Under the pieces are notes generated by a model, which was not told the origin of the DNA, searched no databases, and saw only the letters and a program-made list of their open reading frames with translations. From IMG/VR virus record IMGVR_UViG_2925939204_000001: a stretch of 64,000 nt of DNA. One strand, given 5' to 3'. Shown here piece by piece: positions 4,619 to 23,532 of the stretch; positions within the stretch are counted from its first letter, which is position 1, and each line of letters begins with the position of its first letter. This DNA comes from a virus (taxonomy: Duplodnaviria > Heunggongvirae > Uroviricota > Caudoviricetes). A program made the translations under genes and the position numbers.

Positions 4619-5422
4619 TTGAGGATGCTTATGGGCCGTTTTGACGAATGGTTTGCTGACGATGCAAACCTGGCAAGTAAGGAGTCAGAACATGACAGCA
4701 CGCAGAGAGAAACGCCAGCGCCGATTGAAGCGAATGCAGGAGGCGCGCCGGAACATGGCAATACCGGTTCGGATTCATTCAGCATTCTGGAAGAGCAACC
4801 CGCCGCCAAAGCTGATAGCCATGATAATTTTGCTGATAGCAACGGTGGCCTTACTCCGGATGCTGGCGAATCAGATATAGCCATACTTCCATCTTCCCTG
4901 GCTGGCAGAGAACCGACTCCACAGTTAAAAGCACGCTATAACGGGCATAAAGCCTTTAACGACCAAATCCGCGCAGACTGGATGCTGATTATTGAATCCA
5001 GCCCAGACGCGTTTCAGGCTCTCTTATATCGACCAGATGTTGGCACATATGGGGTAGTCAGCGACGAAACAGGAGAAGAGTCATTCACTGAACTGGATAA
5101 CAACCAACGCGAACTGACTTACCAGGAACCTGAAATCGTTTATGTGCTGGATAACCCTGACGGGCGTGACTCTTTCCATGCGATTGACGCAGACGGTGAG
5201 CAGGATGGCTTAACCGATGATGTTCTGATTCTGCGTATTGCAGCAAATAACGTCCCCGTCGGCTCAATTCTTGAATGGAATGAAGAGATGGTAAACGGCG
5301 TAGCGCGCCGCTGGTGGTACGTGCACCGTATTTTTAGCTACGGCACACAGCATGTTGGTTCGCTTTACTACTGCATACCTGCCAGGAATTTTGATACGAC
5401 TCAAAACGGAGTGATCGAATGA
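4619..5422 (+). CDS. acidic protein, probable virion/baseplate-module component (267 aa)
   Basis: GAGGA SD before ATG; D/E-rich N-terminus; first gene of a four-gene overlapping plus-strand operon. Confidence 0.5.
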   Translation: MRMLMGRFDEWFADDANLASKESEHDSTQRETPAPIEANAGGAPEHGNTGSDSFSILEEQPAAKADSHDNFADSNGGLTPDAGESDIAILPSSLAGREPTPQLKARYNGHKAFNDQIRADWMLIIESSPDAFQALLYRPDVGTYGVVSDETGEESFTELDNNQRELTYQEPEIVYVLDNPDGRDSFHAIDADGEQDGLTDDVLILRIAANNVPVGSILEWNEEMVNGVARRWWYVHRIFSYGTQHVGSLYYCIPARNFDTTQNGVIE

Positions 5423-19596: not shown

Positions 19597-19645
19597 TAGC
19601 CCGTCAAAAGAACCTTCACGCCGCGCCCGAATTTAGGGCTTAACC

Positions 19646-21343
19646 GTGAATAAAAACATTCAGCCAGCTCGTGATCGCGAGCGCGAGATTATGAATCGGG
19701 CGGCAAGCGTCATGGCTATGACCGTCGATCCGACCACCGATGCAGCAGGCAACATGATTGCTGACCAGGCAGTAATGATGGAAAACCTGGATAAAGCAAT
19801 CCAGAAAGTGCCTATGTTTGAAGGCGTAAATCCAGAGGTCGCTCGTCAGATCACTGGTGGGTGGGCTATGTCTCTGCATGAGTATAAACGTCAACATGGT
19901 CATTACCCGGCAAGTGACATCCTGGCGAACGCACACATGGCTCTTGAGCGCCTGATGACTGAATGTGCCAGTGATACCCATGAAGGCACGGGTAAGGCAA
20001 TGTTTGAGTCTGTCGCGCAATCAATGCGTAGCTCTGACGGCGTAATGAAAGTTGCTCAATATGCTGCTCTAATTCTGCCTGCCTCTCTGGGCGCTGCTAC
20101 CAGTGATGCCTGTACTTTTGTTCCTTGTGATCGTGACGAGTCAAATATTTATGAACTGGTCAACGTAGCAGGCACAAAATTCGGCACCTTCAAACAAGGT
20201 GACGAACTGAATATGCAGTCAGCTGGTGTTTATTCTCAAATGAAGCGCCTGTATACCCTTTCCACTAAAGGGGATGGCAGCACCAAAACCTTCCAGTTCG
20301 ACATCCAAAATTTTGAGGGACAATCCTGCCCGCTTCGCGCTGGTTATAACAAACTGCTGATCAACCGCAAACCGTCCAAAGTTGACGACGGCGATGGCAA
20401 CCTTTATTTCAATGCTAAAGACAGCAAAGGTAATGCTTTCTCAGCGACTGCCAAAGTTGCCTATGACACTGGTGTCATTGACATTACATTTACCCAGGCT
20501 CCGCCAGTAGGTACTGAAATTGCTGTTCAGGTCGAAATTAACATCGAGCGCAATCCAAGCCTGATTCCGGTGATCAACCAGGCTATGCGTAAGTACGAAG
20601 TTCGTCCGTCCCAGTACGTACTTGCTTCCGAACACACGGTAATGTCCGCATCCGATTTAAGCCGTGAGCACGGCCTTGAATTAGCGGCACTTCAGTTCTC
20701 CGCGATGCGTAACTGGATCTCCCATGAAACCGACATCATGCGTCTGCGCACCCTGGTATTCCATACCGTTTATGGTCGTGAATTTGATGTGGCTCTGCCG
20801 GAAGCTCAAAACTATGAGTCCTGGGTCGGCCTCCTGCGTCACGCAGTAAACGCTCTGTCTCAAGAAATGGCAAATCGTACCCTGACAACGGGTATTCGTG
20901 GCGGCTTTGCTGGTAGTGACGCCGCGAACTTCCTGCGCTCTCTGCCTCCACAGCACTTCCAGATCGCACCAGGTTACGTTCAGTCGCCGTATGTACAGTA
21001 CATCGGCACCCTGTTTGGCACGATTCGTATTTACGAAGTGCCGCAACCTGTCTGTGAGCAATTCCTGGCACAGGGATATGACTTCGGGCTGGATGACATC
21101 TTCTTCTATGGGCGTGGCGAAGGCATCGGTAAAGCCGGTCTGATTGCTGGTGATGCAGTCCCAGCAATCCCTTACGTTCACGAAACCAATCCGTCTCTCG
21201 TTAACCGTACCACTCTCTGGGGCAGTGCCATCAACGAAGTACATCCTCGCAACGGTGAAAACTACTTCACCCGCCTGCGTCTGACTCGTGCCAAAGAAGG
21301 TGCTATCGACATGCTGACAGGCAAGGTTAACGAAAAAAAGTGA
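19646..21343 (+). CDS. major head (capsid) protein candidate (565 aa, GTG start)
   Basis: Size and position (followed by Ig-like ORF, terminator, sheath gene) fit a P1-like head-sheath-tube block; ends with slippery A_AAA_AAG before the stop. Confidence 0.5.
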   Translation: MNKNIQPARDREREIMNRAASVMAMTVDPTTDAAGNMIADQAVMMENLDKAIQKVPMFEGVNPEVARQITGGWAMSLHEYKRQHGHYPASDILANAHMALERLMTECASDTHEGTGKAMFESVAQSMRSSDGVMKVAQYAALILPASLGAATSDACTFVPCDRDESNIYELVNVAGTKFGTFKQGDELNMQSAGVYSQMKRLYTLSTKGDGSTKTFQFDIQNFEGQSCPLRAGYNKLLINRKPSKVDDGDGNLYFNAKDSKGNAFSATAKVAYDTGVIDITFTQAPPVGTEIAVQVEINIERNPSLIPVINQAMRKYEVRPSQYVLASEHTVMSASDLSREHGLELAALQFSAMRNWISHETDIMRLRTLVFHTVYGREFDVALPEAQNYESWVGLLRHAVNALSQEMANRTLTTGIRGGFAGSDAANFLRSLPPQHFQIAPGYVQSPYVQYIGTLFGTIRIYEVPQPVCEQFLAQGYDFGLDDIFFYGRGEGIGKAGLIAGDAVPAIPYVHETNPSLVNRTTLWGSAINEVHPRNGENYFTRLRLTRAKEGAIDMLTGKVNEKK

Positions 21344-21490
21344 TGGTGGCGAACGTGTCGGTATCACCAACGTCACTTGACGTAGATGAAGGTGAAACTA
21401 TCGCCGCGAACACTTCAAAGGCACAGAAAAAAACAAAGCAGAAGTAAGGCAAAAACACGCCCCTGATTAAGGGGCGGTAAGGAGAAAAAA

Positions 21491-21769
21491 ATGGCAAACA
21501 TTCAAGTAACTATCACGCCACCTGACGCAACAGACAAATCTTTCACTGTTGAGTCAGATCACCCTGATATTGTCCAGGTTGATGGCACTACATGTACCGC
21601 TCTTAAGGCCGGGCAGGCAGTGCTGACAATCAAAACAAATGACGGCAATAAAACCGCACAGTGCACAGTCACTGTTAGGGAGGCACATAAAAGCGTAAGC
21701 ACCGTCAGTGTTGAACCAACTACGAAAGAAGTAACTGTAGGCGATAACTTCACGGTAAGCGAATCCTGA
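21491..21769 (+). CDS. Big_2-type Ig-like domain protein (92 aa)
   Basis: VESDHPDIVQVDGTTCTALKAGQAVLTIKTNDGNKTAQCTVTV matches bacterial Ig-like domain pattern; strong SD AAGGAG. Confidence 0.55.
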   Translation: MANIQVTITPPDATDKSFTVESDHPDIVQVDGTTCTALKAGQAVLTIKTNDGNKTAQCTVTVREAHKSVSTVSVEPTTKEVTVGDNFTVSES

Positions 21770-21774
21770 TCAGA

Positions 21775-21815
21775 GGCTGCCCATTAACCGTGGGCAGCCT
21801 TGCCTCGTTCTCTCG
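21775..21815 (+). terminator. rho-independent terminator (AGGCTGCCCA-TTAACCG-TGGGCAGCCT + T-rich)
   Basis: Perfect 10-bp stem after Ig-like ORF stop. Confidence 0.55.
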
Positions 21816-21836
21816 CTTTAGAGGATAAGAACCAGC

Positions 21837-23495
21837 ATGAATAAGATTAGTTTTTCGGTAGGGCAGGCAGCTGGCGTTGCTGTAATGTCAGTAAATGCTG
21901 ACGCTAACCTCACCAATACCAGCGGTGGCGCATCCGTCTTTGCTGGGCTTGTAATATCGCGTCGTGGCGCACCGGGTAAGGTACTGAAAGTTGACGATAC
22001 GACTTATCAAAGCGTATTAGGTTCACCGATTCACCCTCGCCTGGGCGCGGCATTTGAACCATATCGCCACGTGGAGCGTGCAGTAAAAGGCGGCTCTGGA
22101 TATGTCGTTCGAGTTTGCGCTAAAGACATGAAGGTGCCGGGTATTTCTGTTTCCGTTGTGGGCAAAGCAAAAGCGGCAAAGGCGAGCAAAGAACTTTCCG
22201 TTGAACCTACTGAAACCACAGCAAATCTAGGTGACACATTAAGCGTTGGTGTTGCTCCAACTGCAACGACTCAATCAGTGACCTTCACACCCAAAGAGAC
22301 GCCCCAGATTAAAGGTGGAGAGAAGGCATTATTCTTCATCAAAGATGGTGATGCATCTCAAAATCGCACGTTATCACTAACTCGCGATGATGAAGAAAGC
22401 AAACTCTTTACGCTGACGCTGAAAGAAAAACAAACCGATGGGTCCATTGAGGTGCTGGAAAGCCACCAAGTGTCTTTCAATCCAGAAGGCACCAACGACA
22501 TGGGCCAACCAGCATGGATTCCGACACTGCTTGAAAGCCAGTCCGCTCGCATTGGTGCCGTACTGGCAGATAATGCAGAAGCATCCGCTGCTCAACTCAT
22601 TTTTGAGGATGTGGCTTTTGAAGGTGGTACTGATGGAAATCTGTCCGAAATTGCCGCTGCAGACTATCTGGAAGCATTAAAGGTTCTCGAAGCTTCAGAG
22701 GTTAATTACACCGCATTGCTGTCATTGGGTTGTTATGACGCATCCGCCTTAGCCGCAATCAAAAAGCTGGCTGAAGATGTTCGCGTAGACATGTTCTATG
22801 ACCTGAAGGGCAACCAGACACCTGAAAACGCTATTTCAGAAGCGAAAAGCCATAGTTTTGGCGGCTCACATCAACCAAGCCGTTACTACTTCCCGCTCTC
22901 CTGCCGAGATACTTTCACTGGAATGAATGTCGTCTATGGCATTAGCTGCGACGCATTCGTAGCGAAGGCAAAAGGAGTGGCGCTGGTACCGGATGTTGGT
23001 GGTTGGCATTACGCACCGGCAGGTATATCACGCGCGATTATTGATCGACAGAACATTGCCCGAATTCCAAATATCGGTGCAGTTGATCGTGAAGCGTTCG
23101 TTCTTGCGCGCATTAATCCAGTTTCAGTTGCTGCTGACGGGTCCGTTTACATTGACGACTCTTTAACAACTTACAGCAAAAACAACTATCTGCGATTCCA
23201 GCATGTGTCTTCCTTGATGAACGCCATCGCCAGAGATTTCTATGAAGTAGCTCAGGCGATTAAGCACGAACCGGATGGCATTACCAAAGAAGCGCTAATG
23301 AAAGCAATGACTGAATTGCTTGACCGTTACGTTGCAGCCGGTGCGCTGGTTACTCCACGTGACAAGTCCCAGGGTGAAGATCCATATGTTGTTCAGGTTG
23401 TCCAAAAGGACATCGATCTGTGGGAAGTGCCCTGGTCTGTTTGTCCGACCGGTACAGCTCGCCGAATCGCCGGTAAGCCAATTCTGATGCGCTGA
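21837..23495 (+). CDS. tail sheath protein candidate (552 aa)
   Basis: N-terminal SGGASVFAGLVISRRGAPGKVLKV resembles sheath N-termini; size ~60 kDa. Confidence 0.5.
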   Translation: MNKISFSVGQAAGVAVMSVNADANLTNTSGGASVFAGLVISRRGAPGKVLKVDDTTYQSVLGSPIHPRLGAAFEPYRHVERAVKGGSGYVVRVCAKDMKVPGISVSVVGKAKAAKASKELSVEPTETTANLGDTLSVGVAPTATTQSVTFTPKETPQIKGGEKALFFIKDGDASQNRTLSLTRDDEESKLFTLTLKEKQTDGSIEVLESHQVSFNPEGTNDMGQPAWIPTLLESQSARIGAVLADNAEASAAQLIFEDVAFEGGTDGNLSEIAAADYLEALKVLEASEVNYTALLSLGCYDASALAAIKKLAEDVRVDMFYDLKGNQTPENAISEAKSHSFGGSHQPSRYYFPLSCRDTFTGMNVVYGISCDAFVAKAKGVALVPDVGGWHYAPAGISRAIIDRQNIARIPNIGAVDREAFVLARINPVSVAADGSVYIDDSLTTYSKNNYLRFQHVSSLMNAIARDFYEVAQAIKHEPDGITKEALMKAMTELLDRYVAAGALVTPRDKSQGEDPYVVQVVQKDIDLWEVPWSVCPTGTARRIAGKPILMR

Positions 23496-23532
23496 TTTAT
23501 AACCCCCGCTAAATGATGCGGGGGAGAGAGGT

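What the first reader, a model, noticed from the sequence alone, without database searches (positions are those of the whole stretch)
21334..21815. Slippery heptamer A_AAA_AAG at the capsid stop and fragmented Ig-like (Big_2) coding downstream
The capsid candidate ends ...GKVNEKK with AAC GAA AAA AAG TGA, i.e. the classic -1 frameshift heptamer A_AAA_AAG (21334-21340) abutting the stop. The -1 frame continues for 36 codons (VMVANVSVSPTSLDVDEGETIAANTSK...) resembling the first strand of a Big_2 domain, then stops at 21445. A small hairpin (GCCCCT-GATTA-AGGGGC) and a separately initiated 92-aa Big_2 ORF follow, which itself ends with another partial Big_2 start (VSTVSVEPTTKEVTVGDNFTV). Ig-like decorations on phage structural proteins are often added by programmed frameshifting. 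This locus looks like such a system, possibly partly decayed.
Basis: partly seen in the sequence, partly recalled or inferred. Interest (0 to 1): 0.5.

Follow-up and report, generated by a model that had tools for sequence, protein, structure and literature searches.

The report
Capsid frameshift feeding a split Ig domain
At the end of the major capsid gene of a D6-like E. coli plasmid-prophage, a conserved slippery site very probably lets some ribosomes slip back one base and add a short tail that is the missing first beta-hairpin of an Ig-like (Big_2) domain whose remainder is made by the next gene, so what looked like decay is a conserved split domain that may work as a natural tag-and-catcher for decorating the virion.

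Summary
The window is a D6-like phage-plasmid. Its P1 gp23-like capsid gene ends AAC GAA AAA AAG TGA, and the -1 frame stays open for 35 codons. The next gene, 92 aa, is a Big_2 protein.

The heptamer alone is not unusual: 22 copies in the window against 21 expected. The comparative evidence is what counts. Eight diverged lineages (capsid identity down to 68%) keep A_AAA_AAG in phase and an open -1 ORF encoding the same beta-hairpin. One of these ORFs has no start codon. Three further lineages carry the same tail in frame. More distant relatives have a complete Big_2 fused to the capsid.

The "partly decayed" reading is not supported. The tail matches Big_2 positions about 1-24 and the small protein positions 23-79. 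The small protein also ends in a second copy of the hairpin. All pieces are under purifying selection. In the same clade only, the tail sheath carries a hairpin-like insertion.

Best reading: a programmed -1 frameshift (about 0.85-0.9) gives a fraction of capsid subunits a docking hairpin. The A-strand-less Ig protein may complete this hairpin by beta-strand complementation (about 0.4, untested). This is a new variant of the known "Ig extension by capsid frameshift".

The parts
19646..21343 (+). Major capsid protein gene (P1 gene 23-like), 565 aa, 0-frame product ending ...LTGKVNEKK*
   Evidence: ORF list. 98.9% identical to Escherichia phage D6, where it is annotated 'major capsid protein, similar to P1 gene 23'. 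83 homologues found.
21334..21340 (+). Slippery heptamer A_AAA_AAG in X_XXY_YYZ phase, followed directly by stop TGA (21341-21343)
   Evidence: Sequence. Invariant and in phase in 8 lineages, while the codons on both sides vary (GAA/GCA/GGA before; TGA/TAG/TAA/TCC/TCG after). Absent from 18 capsid genes outside the clade.
21340..21447 (+). -1 frame extension, 35 codons plus TAA. Codons 3-24 (21346-21411) encode the A/A'/start-of-B hairpin of a Big_2 domain (VANVSVSPTSLDVDEGETIAAN). 21412-21444 encode a basic tail (TSKAQKKTKQK). D6 annotates this stretch as a separate 34-aa 'orf50'.
   Evidence: Homologous extension is in frame in P0012, P0013 and L017. Completes the Big_2 profile when joined to orf49. 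Colinear with the contiguous Big_2 of the fused capsid P0046. dN/dS 0.33-0.47.
21346..21407 (+). Possible 3' stimulatory stem-loop: GUGGCGA (21346-21352) pairs with UCGCCGC (21401-21407). It starts 5 nt after the heptamer.
   Evidence: strand folding: -25.7 kcal/mol, z=-2.8. Similar stems in L012, L014 and L016; weak or absent in L003, L038 and L041. Synonymous rate is depressed here (dS 0.31-0.37 against about 1-1.4 in the flanks). Status: inconclusive.
21458..21476 (+). GC-rich intergenic hairpin (7 bp, loop GATTA) between the extension's stop and the next gene. No T-run on the + strand.
   Evidence: Present with compensatory stem changes in L010, L011, L012, L014, L016, L040 and L041.
21479..21484 (+). 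Shine-Dalgarno AAGGAG, 6 nt before the ATG of the small Ig gene
   Evidence: Sequence. The frame relation between extension and small gene differs among lineages, so the small gene is initiated independently.
21491..21769 (+). Small Ig gene (D6 orf49), 92 aa. Big_2 lacking strands A/A' (aa 1-63 = profile positions 23-79), then a linker and a second A/A'/B hairpin (aa 69-92; nt 21695-21766).
21775..21799 (+). 9-bp hairpin (GGCTGCCCA...TGGGCAGCC) after the small Ig gene, followed by T-rich sequence. Terminator-like, but not scored by the scan.
   Evidence: Sequence. Not listed.
22173..22259 (+). Insertion of about 29 aa in the tail sheath (gene 21837-23495), AAKASKELSVEPTETTANLGDTLSVGVAP, resembling the same Big_2 A/A'/B hairpin
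   Evidence: Sheath alignment: the insertion is present in all 7 aligned sheaths of the split-Ig clade and absent from all 10 aligned sheaths outside it, including a locus with a fused capsid-Big_2 (insert-like stretches also read in the sheaths of L038-L041). An HMM built from the capsid extensions and orf49 C-termini finds this site as the best non-self hit in the six-frame window (10.8 bits, i-E 0.025). Scores of 13.6 and 13.3 bits in L016 and L017; no positive score in sheaths without the insert.

Best explanation
The locus is a programmed -1 ribosomal frameshift site coupled to a split Ig-like domain.

Mechanism proposed:
- Most ribosomes finish the major capsid protein at TGA, giving the 565-aa product.
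- A fraction slip back one base on A_AAA_AAG. The single E. coli tRNA-Lys re-pairs from AAA-AAG to AAA-AAA, possibly helped by the adjacent stop and a 3' stem.
- These ribosomes add 35 residues. The first ~24 are the opening beta-hairpin (strands A, A' and the start of B) of a Big_2 domain.
- The next gene is translated from its own Shine-Dalgarno/ATG. It makes the rest of that domain (strands B to G) followed by a second copy of the hairpin.

Shown by comparison:
- Conservation of the slip site and of the -1 ORF.
- Equivalence of the extension to in-frame extensions in relatives.
- The extension plus the small protein together are colinear with the single Big_2 fused to the capsid in more distant relatives.
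- Purifying selection on all pieces.

Inferred, not shown:
- The hairpin on the capsid is a docking tag that the A-strand-less Ig protein completes by beta-strand complementation. A similar hairpin inserted in the tail sheath may act the same way.
- One soluble Ig protein would then decorate the virion.
- In D6-type phages the frameshift would set the fraction of capsid subunits that carry the tag.
- The Ig protein's own terminal hairpin could recruit a further copy.

Sub-confidences: frameshift about 0.85-0.9; split domain conserved and functional about 0.8; docking by strand complementation about 0.4.
For: Frameshift:
- In-phase A_AAA_AAG is invariant in 8 lineages whose capsids are 68-99% identical and whose synonymous sites are otherwise saturated (flank dS about 1-2.4). 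The neighbouring codons and the capsid tail vary (NEKK*, GGDAKK*, GDEKK*, EAKKSE*, EEKKSE*, TGKKSQ*).
- The -1 ORF is open for 24-41 codons after the slip site in all 8 and encodes the same motif. Length differences are in multiples of three.
- L040 has no in-frame ATG/GTG/TTG. L038 and L041 have only a GTG after the A strand.
- L010, L011 and L017 carry the homologous extension in frame.
- 0 of 18 capsid genes outside the clade have the heptamer.

Split domain:
- orf49 covers Big_2 positions 23-79 only.
- Extension plus orf49 gives positions 2-79, 37.9 bits against 32.6 for the core alone.
- The spliced sequence aligns end to end with the contiguous Big_2 of the fused capsid P0046 (40% identity, E=1e-13; 33%, E=6e-8).
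- dN/dS values are low.
- The family has a constant architecture.

Docking:
- 9 of 9 loci then in hand with the extension have an A-less Ig gene, against 0 of 18 without it (L017's gene, missed by that script, is). L038, L040 and L041, fetched later, also have both.
- The sheath hairpin insertion occurs only where the Ig protein is free, not where it is fused to the capsid.
- L016 has a second A-less Ig protein without a donor hairpin.
Against: - No protein-level evidence of the trans-frame product.
- No consistent stimulatory element. The 3' stem is weak or absent in 3 of 8 lineages, and no conserved upstream SD-like sequence was seen.
- In D6 and the window the stop overlaps an ATG (TGATG), so coupled re-initiation could also produce the peptide there.
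- All split-domain lineages form one clade. Co-occurrence therefore counts as one evolutionary event, not eleven.
- The donor hairpins overlap the acceptor's B strand by about 3-4 residues, so the fit is not a clean single-strand complement.
- The sheath insertion's similarity to the hairpin is statistically modest (2.6-13.6 bits; none in L011). It evolves 3-5 times faster than the rest of the sheath.
- The first AF2 run was mediocre (pLDDT 67.6) and showed the C-terminal hairpin differently.
Confidence: 0.5

Rival explanations
1. The frameshift is real, but there is no strand complementation. The short extension has its own role, for example capsid stabilisation, assembly control, or a charged/basic tail function like the variable tails of related capsids. 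Orf49 would be an ordinary decoration or adhesion protein that folds without strand A and binds the virion some other way, or not at all.
For: - Related capsids carry many kinds of C-terminal tails, including low-complexity acidic/Ala-rich tails with basic ends and no Ig content.
- The Rosenbergiella capsid appears to add such a tail by -1 shifting at G_GGA_AAG.
- The AF2 monomer model of Orf49 is confident (pLDDT 90) without any partner.
- The sheath-insert similarity is modest.
Against: - It does not explain why the extension is precisely the part of the Big_2 domain that the next gene lacks.
- It does not explain why the same hairpin is kept at the end of Orf49 under purifying selection.
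- It does not explain why a hairpin-like insert appears in the sheath only in the clade with a free A-less Ig protein.
- The basic tail is absent in L016 and L040, so the hairpin is the conserved part.
Confidence: 0.3
2. Decay. An ancestral capsid-Big_2 fusion was broken by a frameshift mutation and an insertion. The extension and the partial domains are non-functional relics, and any slippage is adventitious.
For: - Intact in-frame capsid-Big_2 fusions exist in relatives (P0046, P0047, P0059, P0061, P0063).
- The -1 peptide alone has no Pfam hit.
Against: - The same architecture is kept in 11 lineages with saturated synonymous divergence.
- dN/dS is 0.07-0.11 for orf49, 0.10-0.26 for its terminal hairpin and 0.33-0.47 for the extension.
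- Indels in the extension are multiples of three.
- The heptamer is invariant.
Confidence: 0.07
3. The -1 ORF is a separate small gene, as annotated in D6 ('orf50', 34 aa). It would be expressed by termination-reinitiation at the TGATG stop/start overlap, not by frameshifting.
For: - In the window and in D6 the capsid stop overlaps an ATG (AAG TGA TGG).
- A GTG lies at codon +2 in five lineages.
Against: - There is no start codon at all in the L040 ORF. L038 and L041 have only a GTG after the A strand.
- No Shine-Dalgarno sequence precedes any candidate start.
- In L010, L011 and L017 the homologous peptide is covalently part of the capsid.
- Re-initiation would not require an in-phase A_AAA_AAG.
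Confidence: 0.05
4. Artefact or RNA-level event. Either a homopolymer sequencing error hides an in-frame fusion, or RNA polymerase slippage on the A-run (not ribosomal slippage) produces the shifted message.
For: - Two plasmid assemblies differ in A-run length (CP031917 has A5 and is annotated as a 599-aa capsid; CP042632 has A6).
- The run is 7 A in most lineages.
Against: - The out-of-frame arrangement appears in the D6 reference and in lineages that differ at many other sites. The region is present in 118 plasmid records and 82 complete E. coli genomes, although the A-run was not read in each of them.
- The two deviant assemblies carry other indels. In CP031917 the sheath is broken into pieces.
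- L014, L038 and L041 have only 6 A yet keep the in-phase heptamer. That is short for transcriptional slippage.
Confidence: 0.03

Closest known systems
Capsid-gene frameshifts that add C-terminal extensions: T3 (Ig-like) and T7 (not Ig-like) gene 10A/10B, Lactobacillus phage A2 major head protein, Listeria phages A118/A500 (-1) and PSA (+1)
   Same: - Recoding near the 3' end of the major capsid gene gives a minor, longer capsid species.
- In several cases the extension is Ig-like.
- In-frame and out-of-frame versions coexist among relatives, as described for mobile Ig modules (PMC5009743).
   Different: - Here the extension is only about a quarter of an Ig domain (Big_2 positions ~1-24).
- The rest of the domain is a separate, independently initiated protein that itself ends in another copy of the hairpin.
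- The slip site is the dnaX-type A_AAA_AAG, directly abutting (or 2 codons before) the stop.
E. coli dnaX -1 frameshift (A_AAA_AAG with upstream SD-like element and downstream stem-loop)
   Same: Identical heptamer and host tRNA-Lys logic (PMC5009743). A possible stem starts 5 nt downstream in several lineages.
   Different: - No conserved upstream SD-like element.
- The 3' stem is not conserved in all lineages.
- The shift extends the protein rather than truncating it.
[not shown]
   Same: Same attachment point (capsid C-terminus) and a homologous Big_2. The spliced D6 pieces align colinearly with the P0046 domain. The Douge major capsid protein's Ig domain is a structural match.
   Different: In D6-like phages the domain is divided between two polypeptides, and in 8 lineages the first part is reached only by frameshifting.
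Donor-strand complementation in chaperone-usher pili, and engineered split Ig-like domains (SpyTag/SpyCatcher, isopeptag). This is an analogy from general knowledge.
   Same: An Ig-like fold lacking an edge strand, with the missing strand(s) supplied by another polypeptide. A subunit that both accepts and donates could form chains. L016 has an acceptor-only protein that would cap a chain.
   Different: - Pilins lack the C-terminal G strand and receive an N-terminal extension. Here the missing part is N-terminal (A/A'), and the donors are a C-terminal extension, a C-terminal tail and an internal loop.
- No chaperone or isopeptide chemistry is evident.
- Complementation here is untested.
Soluble Ig-domain head decoration proteins (T4 Hoc, T5 pb10; from memory, not checked here; 'Hoc-like protein' of Staphylococcus phage S6, 7x30)
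   Same: A small Ig-like protein encoded next to structural genes, likely displayed on the virion surface.
   Different: Those proteins have complete Ig domains and dedicated capsid-binding domains. Orf49 has neither.

Membership tests
Programmed -1 ribosomal frameshift site (X_XXY_YYZ) | Slippery heptamer in the correct phase of the upstream ORF | tested here: met
   A_AAA_AAG at 21334-21340, in phase with the capsid ORF. In phase in 8 lineages.
Programmed -1 ribosomal frameshift site (X_XXY_YYZ) | The -1 ORF is open, coding and conserved beyond what the 0 frame explains. The heptamer is conserved at synonymous positions. | tested here: met
   ORF open in all 8 lineages. Indels are multiples of three. 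dN/dS 0.33-0.47. Flanking dS is saturated, yet the heptamer is invariant.
Programmed -1 ribosomal frameshift site (X_XXY_YYZ) | No alternative route of expression (no independent start); in-frame fusions in relatives | tested here: met
   No start codon in L040. L038 and L041 have only late GTGs. In-frame versions exist in L010, L011 and L017. Caveat: the window itself has a TGATG overlap.
Programmed -1 ribosomal frameshift site (X_XXY_YYZ) | Stimulatory element (3' stem-loop/pseudoknot 5-9 nt downstream, or 5' SD-like sequence) | tested here: inconclusive
   Stem with z=-2.8, -3.2, -2.4 and -3.4 in window, L012, L014 and L016. Weak or absent in L003, L038 and L041. No conserved upstream SD-like sequence. 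No Rfam match.
Programmed -1 ribosomal frameshift site (X_XXY_YYZ) | Trans-frame protein detected; measurable efficiency | not testable with these tools
   Needs mass spectrometry, western blot or reporter assays. The D6 genome paper (PMC5800970) is not held.
Capsid frameshift adding an Ig-like domain (T3/A2/A118 type) | The upstream gene is the major capsid protein | tested here: met
   98.9% identical to D6 orf51, annotated 'major capsid protein, similar to P1 gene 23'. Weak Pfam Gp23 hit (E=0.021, below threshold). Synteny with the sheath gene in 27 loci.
Capsid frameshift adding an Ig-like domain (T3/A2/A118 type) | The extension contains a complete Ig-like domain | tested here: not met
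   The extension is 35 aa and has no Pfam hit alone. It corresponds to only Big_2 positions ~1-24.
Big_2 (PF02368) | Score above the gathering threshold over the full domain | tested here: inconclusive
   orf49 scores 30.8 bits (>22.8) but covers only positions 23-79 of 79. Full coverage (2-79) appears only when the extension, the protein's own C-terminal hairpin, or (4/5-79) the sheath insert is spliced on.
Donor-strand complementation / split Ig domain | Acceptor with an incomplete Ig fold that lacks an edge strand | tested here: met
   The reading frame is closed 8 codons upstream of the ATG, so no A strand can be encoded. The same N-terminus is seen in all 16 family members.
Donor-strand complementation / split Ig domain | The missing strand is present on a separate polypeptide and co-inherited | tested here: met
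   Capsid extension, Orf49 C-terminus and sheath insert. Co-occurrence 9/9 against 0/18 among the loci then in hand, within one clade. L038, L040 and L041, fetched later, also have both.
Donor-strand complementation / split Ig domain | Physical complementation (the donor occupies the A/A' position; folding or stability depends on it) | not testable with these tools
The monomer model leaves aa 63-92 unpaired.
Translational bypassing (T4 gene 60 type) | Matched take-off and landing codons flanking a coding gap, with a conserved frame relation | tested here: not met
   The GCGAAC/GCAAAC repeat flanking an 88-nt gap in the window is not conserved. The frame relation between extension and small gene differs among lineages. 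A strong SD-ATG is present.

The most novel reading that the evidence does not exclude
D6-like phage-plasmids carry a natural, non-covalent 'tag-catcher' system built from one split Big_2 domain.
- A ~22-aa beta-hairpin tag is placed on the capsid, by frameshifting in 8 lineages and in frame in 3.
- The same tag is placed in a surface loop of the tail sheath and at the end of the Ig protein itself.
- The A-strand-less Ig protein captures these tags by strand complementation, decorating head and tail and possibly forming short chains.
- An acceptor-only variant (the 68-aa protein in L016) would act as a chain cap.
- The frameshift efficiency sets tag density on the capsid.
Probability: 0.35. 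Interest if true: 0.85.

Novelty: new variant of a known kind. Interest (0 to 1): 0.62.

Why it matters
- Annotation. The capsid of D6-like plasmid prophages very probably has two forms. These elements occur in 82 of 5,426 complete E. coli genomes, always on plasmids, and also in Shigella, Salmonella, Enterobacter and Raoultella. 'orf50' is not a gene of its own. None of the annotated public records inspected here marks a frameshift.
- Recoding. This is a very clean comparative case: the same extension is reached by -1 shifting in eight lineages and in frame in three, with a start-less -1 ORF in one. A second, independent-looking case (G_GGA_AAG) occurs in the same capsid family.
- Structure and evolution. 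If the split Big_2 works by strand complementation, it would be a natural counterpart of engineered split-domain tags and of pilus donor-strand exchange, used to hang one Ig protein on both head and tail. No such system was found in the literature search.
- Application. It would offer a ready-made peptide tag for display on P1/D6-type particles.

Tried and rejected
- Translational bypass over an 88-nt gap (21412-21499) flanked by GCGAAC/GCAAAC. Removing the gap gives a perfect Big_2 strand B. Rejected because the repeat and the frame relation are not conserved and the small gene has its own SD-ATG.
- Stop-codon readthrough from the extension into orf49. Rejected because the frames differ among lineages.
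- A second slip at the A7 run 21427-21433. The run is not conserved.
- The GC hairpin 21458-21476 as a frameshift stimulator. It lies about 115 nt downstream and scans only as a minus-strand terminator-like site.
- Rfam search of 21200-21900. Only chance-level hits.
- AF2 of the concatenated extension plus Orf49.
- First AF2 run with 12 near-identical sequences. It gave a mediocre model (pLDDT 67.6), and its Foldseek search was uninformative beyond 'Big_2-like'.
- Exhaustive profile search with the Orf49 family. Swamped by giant tandem Big_2 proteins. It shows only that the Orf49 register is a window of a tandem array shifted by about 20 residues.
- The D6 genome paper could not be read.
- Conserved upstream SD-like stimulator. 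None found.
Full report
**Identity of the window**

The region 19600-23500 is 98.9% identical to Escherichia phage D6, a P1-related plasmid prophage. It is 100% identical to E. coli plasmid NZ_CP020051.1.

D6 annotates four genes here:
- orf51, major capsid protein, similar to P1 gene 23
- orf50, 34 aa, hypothetical
- orf49, 92 aa, structural protein with Ig domain
- orf48, tail sheath, similar to P1 gene 22

The region occurs in 82 of 5,426 complete E. coli genomes, always on plasmids.

**Check of the observation**

- The capsid ORF 19646-21343 ends AAC GAA AAA AAG TGA.
- The heptamer A_AAA_AAG is at 21334-21340, in the X_XXY_YYZ phase.
- The -1 frame reads VMVANVSVSPTSLDVDEGETIAANTSKAQKKTKQK, ending at TAA 21445-21447.
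- A 7-bp GC hairpin lies at 21458-21476.
- AAGGAG and ATG open a 92-aa ORF at 21491-21769.
- This ORF is Big_2 above Pfam's threshold, but only over profile positions 23-79.
- It ends with VSTVSVEPTTKEVTVGDNFTVSES, the start of another Big_2.

The heptamer alone is not remarkable: 22 copies in the window against 21 expected.

**Is the frameshift programmed?**

I collected relatives through the capsid protein, the small Ig protein and their contigs.

Eight lineages keep A_AAA_AAG in phase at the end of the capsid gene. Their capsids are 68-99% identical to the window's.
- Window/D6
- Shigella and Salmonella (L003, L013)
- A second E. coli type (L012)
- L014 and L016
- L038, L040 (Enterobacter hormaechei type) and L041 (Raoultella type)

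The codon before the heptamer varies (GAA, GCA, GGA). So does what follows (TGA, TAG, TAA, or two further codons giving KKSE*/KKSQ*). So does the capsid tail.

In all eight the -1 frame is open for 24-41 codons after the slip site. It encodes the same motif (V-x-G/N-V-S-V-x-P...V-x-x-G-D/E-x-hydrophobic). Length differences are multiples of three.

Start codons in the -1 ORF:
- In L040 there is no in-frame ATG, GTG or TTG at all.
- In L038 and L041 the only one lies after the A strand.
- Separate initiation therefore cannot explain conservation of this coding sequence.

Three further lineages (L010/P0012, L011/P0013, L017) carry the homologous extension in frame, for example ...VEGVTLSPASITVSAGDEITAGNTKKDS*. 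None of 18 capsid genes outside this clade has the heptamer.

Between lineages, synonymous sites in the flanking genes are saturated (dS about 1-2.4). In the extension dS is only 0.31-0.37, which suggests an added constraint at the nucleotide level.

A stem (GUGGCGA/UCGCCGC) starting 5 nt after the heptamer folds better than shuffles in the window, L012, L014 and L016. It does not in L003, L038 and L041. No conserved upstream SD-like element was seen. Stimulators therefore remain unresolved.

A_AAA_AAG is the most shift-prone heptamer known in E. coli. [quoted passage not shown] Its retention at the end of a capsid gene, presumably one of the most highly expressed phage genes, is itself telling.

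L014, L038 and L041 have only six A's, which argues against transcriptional slippage. Two assemblies with different run lengths also carry other indels and look like sequencing errors.

I put the programmed -1 frameshift at about 0.85-0.9.

**Is the Ig coding 'decayed'?**

No. Spliced to orf49, the extension turns the partial Big_2 match (positions 23-79, 32.6 bits for the core) into a full one (positions 2-79, 37.9 bits). The same holds for the L010 lineage.

The spliced sequence aligns end to end with the contiguous Big_2 domain found at the capsid C-terminus in more distant relatives:
- 40% identity, E=1e-13, for the L010 type
- 33% identity, E=6e-8, for the D6 type
- The fused relatives are P0046, P0047, P0059, P0061 and P0063 (652-674 aa)
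- In loci with a fused capsid the sheath gene follows directly, with no small Ig gene

The extension and orf49 are therefore two halves of one domain, cut inside strand B with a 3-4 residue overlap.

All 11 lineages of the clade keep this cut. Each has a stop, a GC hairpin (with compensatory stem changes), a Shine-Dalgarno sequence and an ATG.

The small protein family (16 members, 33-97% identical) has a constant length. It always ends 5-9 residues after the G-D/E turn of a second A/A'/B hairpin.

Selection is purifying:
- dN/dS 0.07-0.11 for orf49
- dN/dS 0.10-0.26 for its terminal hairpin
- dN/dS 0.33-0.47 for the extension

The frame relation between extension and small gene differs among lineages. 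This excludes readthrough or bypassing.

**A third copy of the hairpin**

Sheath proteins of the split-Ig clade are 537-563 aa, against 520-548 aa elsewhere. The alignment shows a 25-38 aa insertion near residue 113-141.
- Window: AAKASKELSVEPTETTANLGDTLSVGVAP, nt 22173-22259
- It is present in all 7 aligned sheaths of the clade.
- It is absent from all 10 aligned sheaths outside the clade, including one from a fused capsid-Big_2 locus.

I built an HMM from the capsid extensions and the Orf49 C-termini, leaving out all sheath sequences. In the six-frame translation of the whole window its best non-self hit is this insertion (10.8 bits, i-E 0.025). The scores on other sheaths are:
- L016: 13.6 bits
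- L017: 13.3 bits
- L012: 6.9 bits
- L003: 2.6 bits
- L010: 0.3 bits
- L011: no positive score
- Sheaths without the insert: no positive score

The insertion evolves 3-5 times faster than the rest of the sheath. This evidence is suggestive, not strong.

**Structure**

With a diverse alignment AF2 gives a confident Orf49 model (pLDDT 90.2). Beta strands appear only in residues 18-62, and residues 63-92 have no ladder partner.

From Ig topology (inference): strand G ends at the opposite pole from where strand A begins. The 9-residue linker is short for complementation within one molecule.

**Mechanism proposed**

Most ribosomes terminate and give the 565-aa capsid protein. A fraction slip -1 on A_AAA_AAG and add the hairpin.

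The A-strand-less Ig protein, made in quantity from its own strong ribosome-binding site, would bind the hairpin by beta-strand complementation. It might bind the sheath insert in the same way. Its own terminal hairpin could recruit another copy.

L016 encodes an additional 68-aa A-less Ig protein without a donor hairpin, which would fit a chain cap.

Points in favour:
- Exact complementarity of the pieces.
- Three donor-like copies.
- Restriction of the sheath insert to genomes where the Ig protein is free.

Points against:
- One clade means one evolutionary event.
- The sheath similarity is modest.
- The donor and the acceptor overlap in strand B.
- There is no complex model or experiment.

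I rate this step at about 0.4. The main rival (0.3) is a real frameshift whose extension and small Ig protein act independently.

**Relation to known systems**

Frameshifting that adds Ig-like extensions to capsid proteins is established: T3, Lactobacillus phage A2, Listeria A118, A500 and PSA. The coexistence of in-frame and out-of-frame versions has been attributed to mobile Ig modules landing in either frame (PMC5009743).

D6 fits that kind for the recoding step. It fails the feature 'the extension is a complete Ig domain'.

The split of one Big_2 between a recoded capsid tail and a separate protein has no counterpart that I could find. Neither does the possible use of the same hairpin in the sheath. 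A search for 'donor strand' with phage, capsid and Ig-like returned nothing relevant.

Hence: a new variant of a known kind, with a more novel reading still open.

Noticed in passing
window 22173-22259 (within tail sheath gene 21837-23495): The sheath carries a ~29-aa insertion (AAKASKELSVEPTETTANLGDTLSVGVAP) that resembles the Big_2 A/A'/B hairpin. It is present only in the clade with the free A-less Ig gene. It is absent from 10 sheaths outside the clade, including one from a fused capsid-Big_2 locus.
   Followed up: partly
L021 (Rosenbergiella metrosideri NZ_JALBCV010000011.1) 4694-4920: The capsid (569 aa...EAAVAGK*) ends G_GGA_AAG TGA. The -1 frame is open for 72 codons of Ala/Gln/Asp/Lys-rich low-complexity sequence ending near the sheath gene. 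This resembles the in-frame tails of P0023/P0025. It looks like a second, separate capsid-end -1 frameshift in the same capsid family.
   Followed up: partly
L016 2238-2444 and 2501-2776: This lineage has two A-strand-less Ig genes after the frameshift extension. One is a 68-aa protein with no terminal hairpin. The other is a 91-aa protein with one.
   Followed up: partly
window 21458-21476: The intergenic GC hairpin has no T-run on the + strand. It scans as a terminator-like site on the minus strand (CGCCCCTTAATCAGGGGCG TGTTTTTG). The stem shows compensatory changes in relatives, but the A-run before it is not conserved.
   Followed up: partly
window 21340-21444: The synonymous rate in the extension (dS 0.31-0.37) is three- to four-fold lower than in the capsid 3' end and in orf49 (about 1-1.4, and up to 2.2). 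This suggests a constraint at the RNA level.
   Followed up: partly
L004 (NZ_CP031917.1) and L006 (CP042632.1), slip-site A-run: Two plasmid assemblies have A5 or A6 instead of A7. One is consequently annotated as a 599-aa capsid identical to the predicted trans-frame product. Both assemblies show other indels (sheath split into pieces; sparse annotation), so these are probably homopolymer errors.
   Followed up: partly
capsid homologues P0005-P0075 (C-termini): After the conserved ...LTG-x-x-I/N, the capsid family has a hypervariable C-terminal tail. Variants: none; short; acidic or Ala-rich low-complexity, often ending in a Lys-rich motif (KSTKSTK, NSKTTK, TPKSAKK, KKSE); the hairpin; or a full Big_2.
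   Followed up: no
   Followed up: yes
window 21775-21799: A 9-bp hairpin (GGCTGCCCA/TGGGCAGCC) with a T-rich tail follows the small Ig gene, before the sheath gene. Analogous hairpins follow the small gene in L010 and L011.
   Followed up: no
window 21341-21345: The capsid stop overlaps an ATG (TGATG). That ATG is the start D6 uses for its annotated 'orf50'. The overlap is specific to the D6 subtype and is absent from the other seven frameshift lineages.
   Followed up: yes
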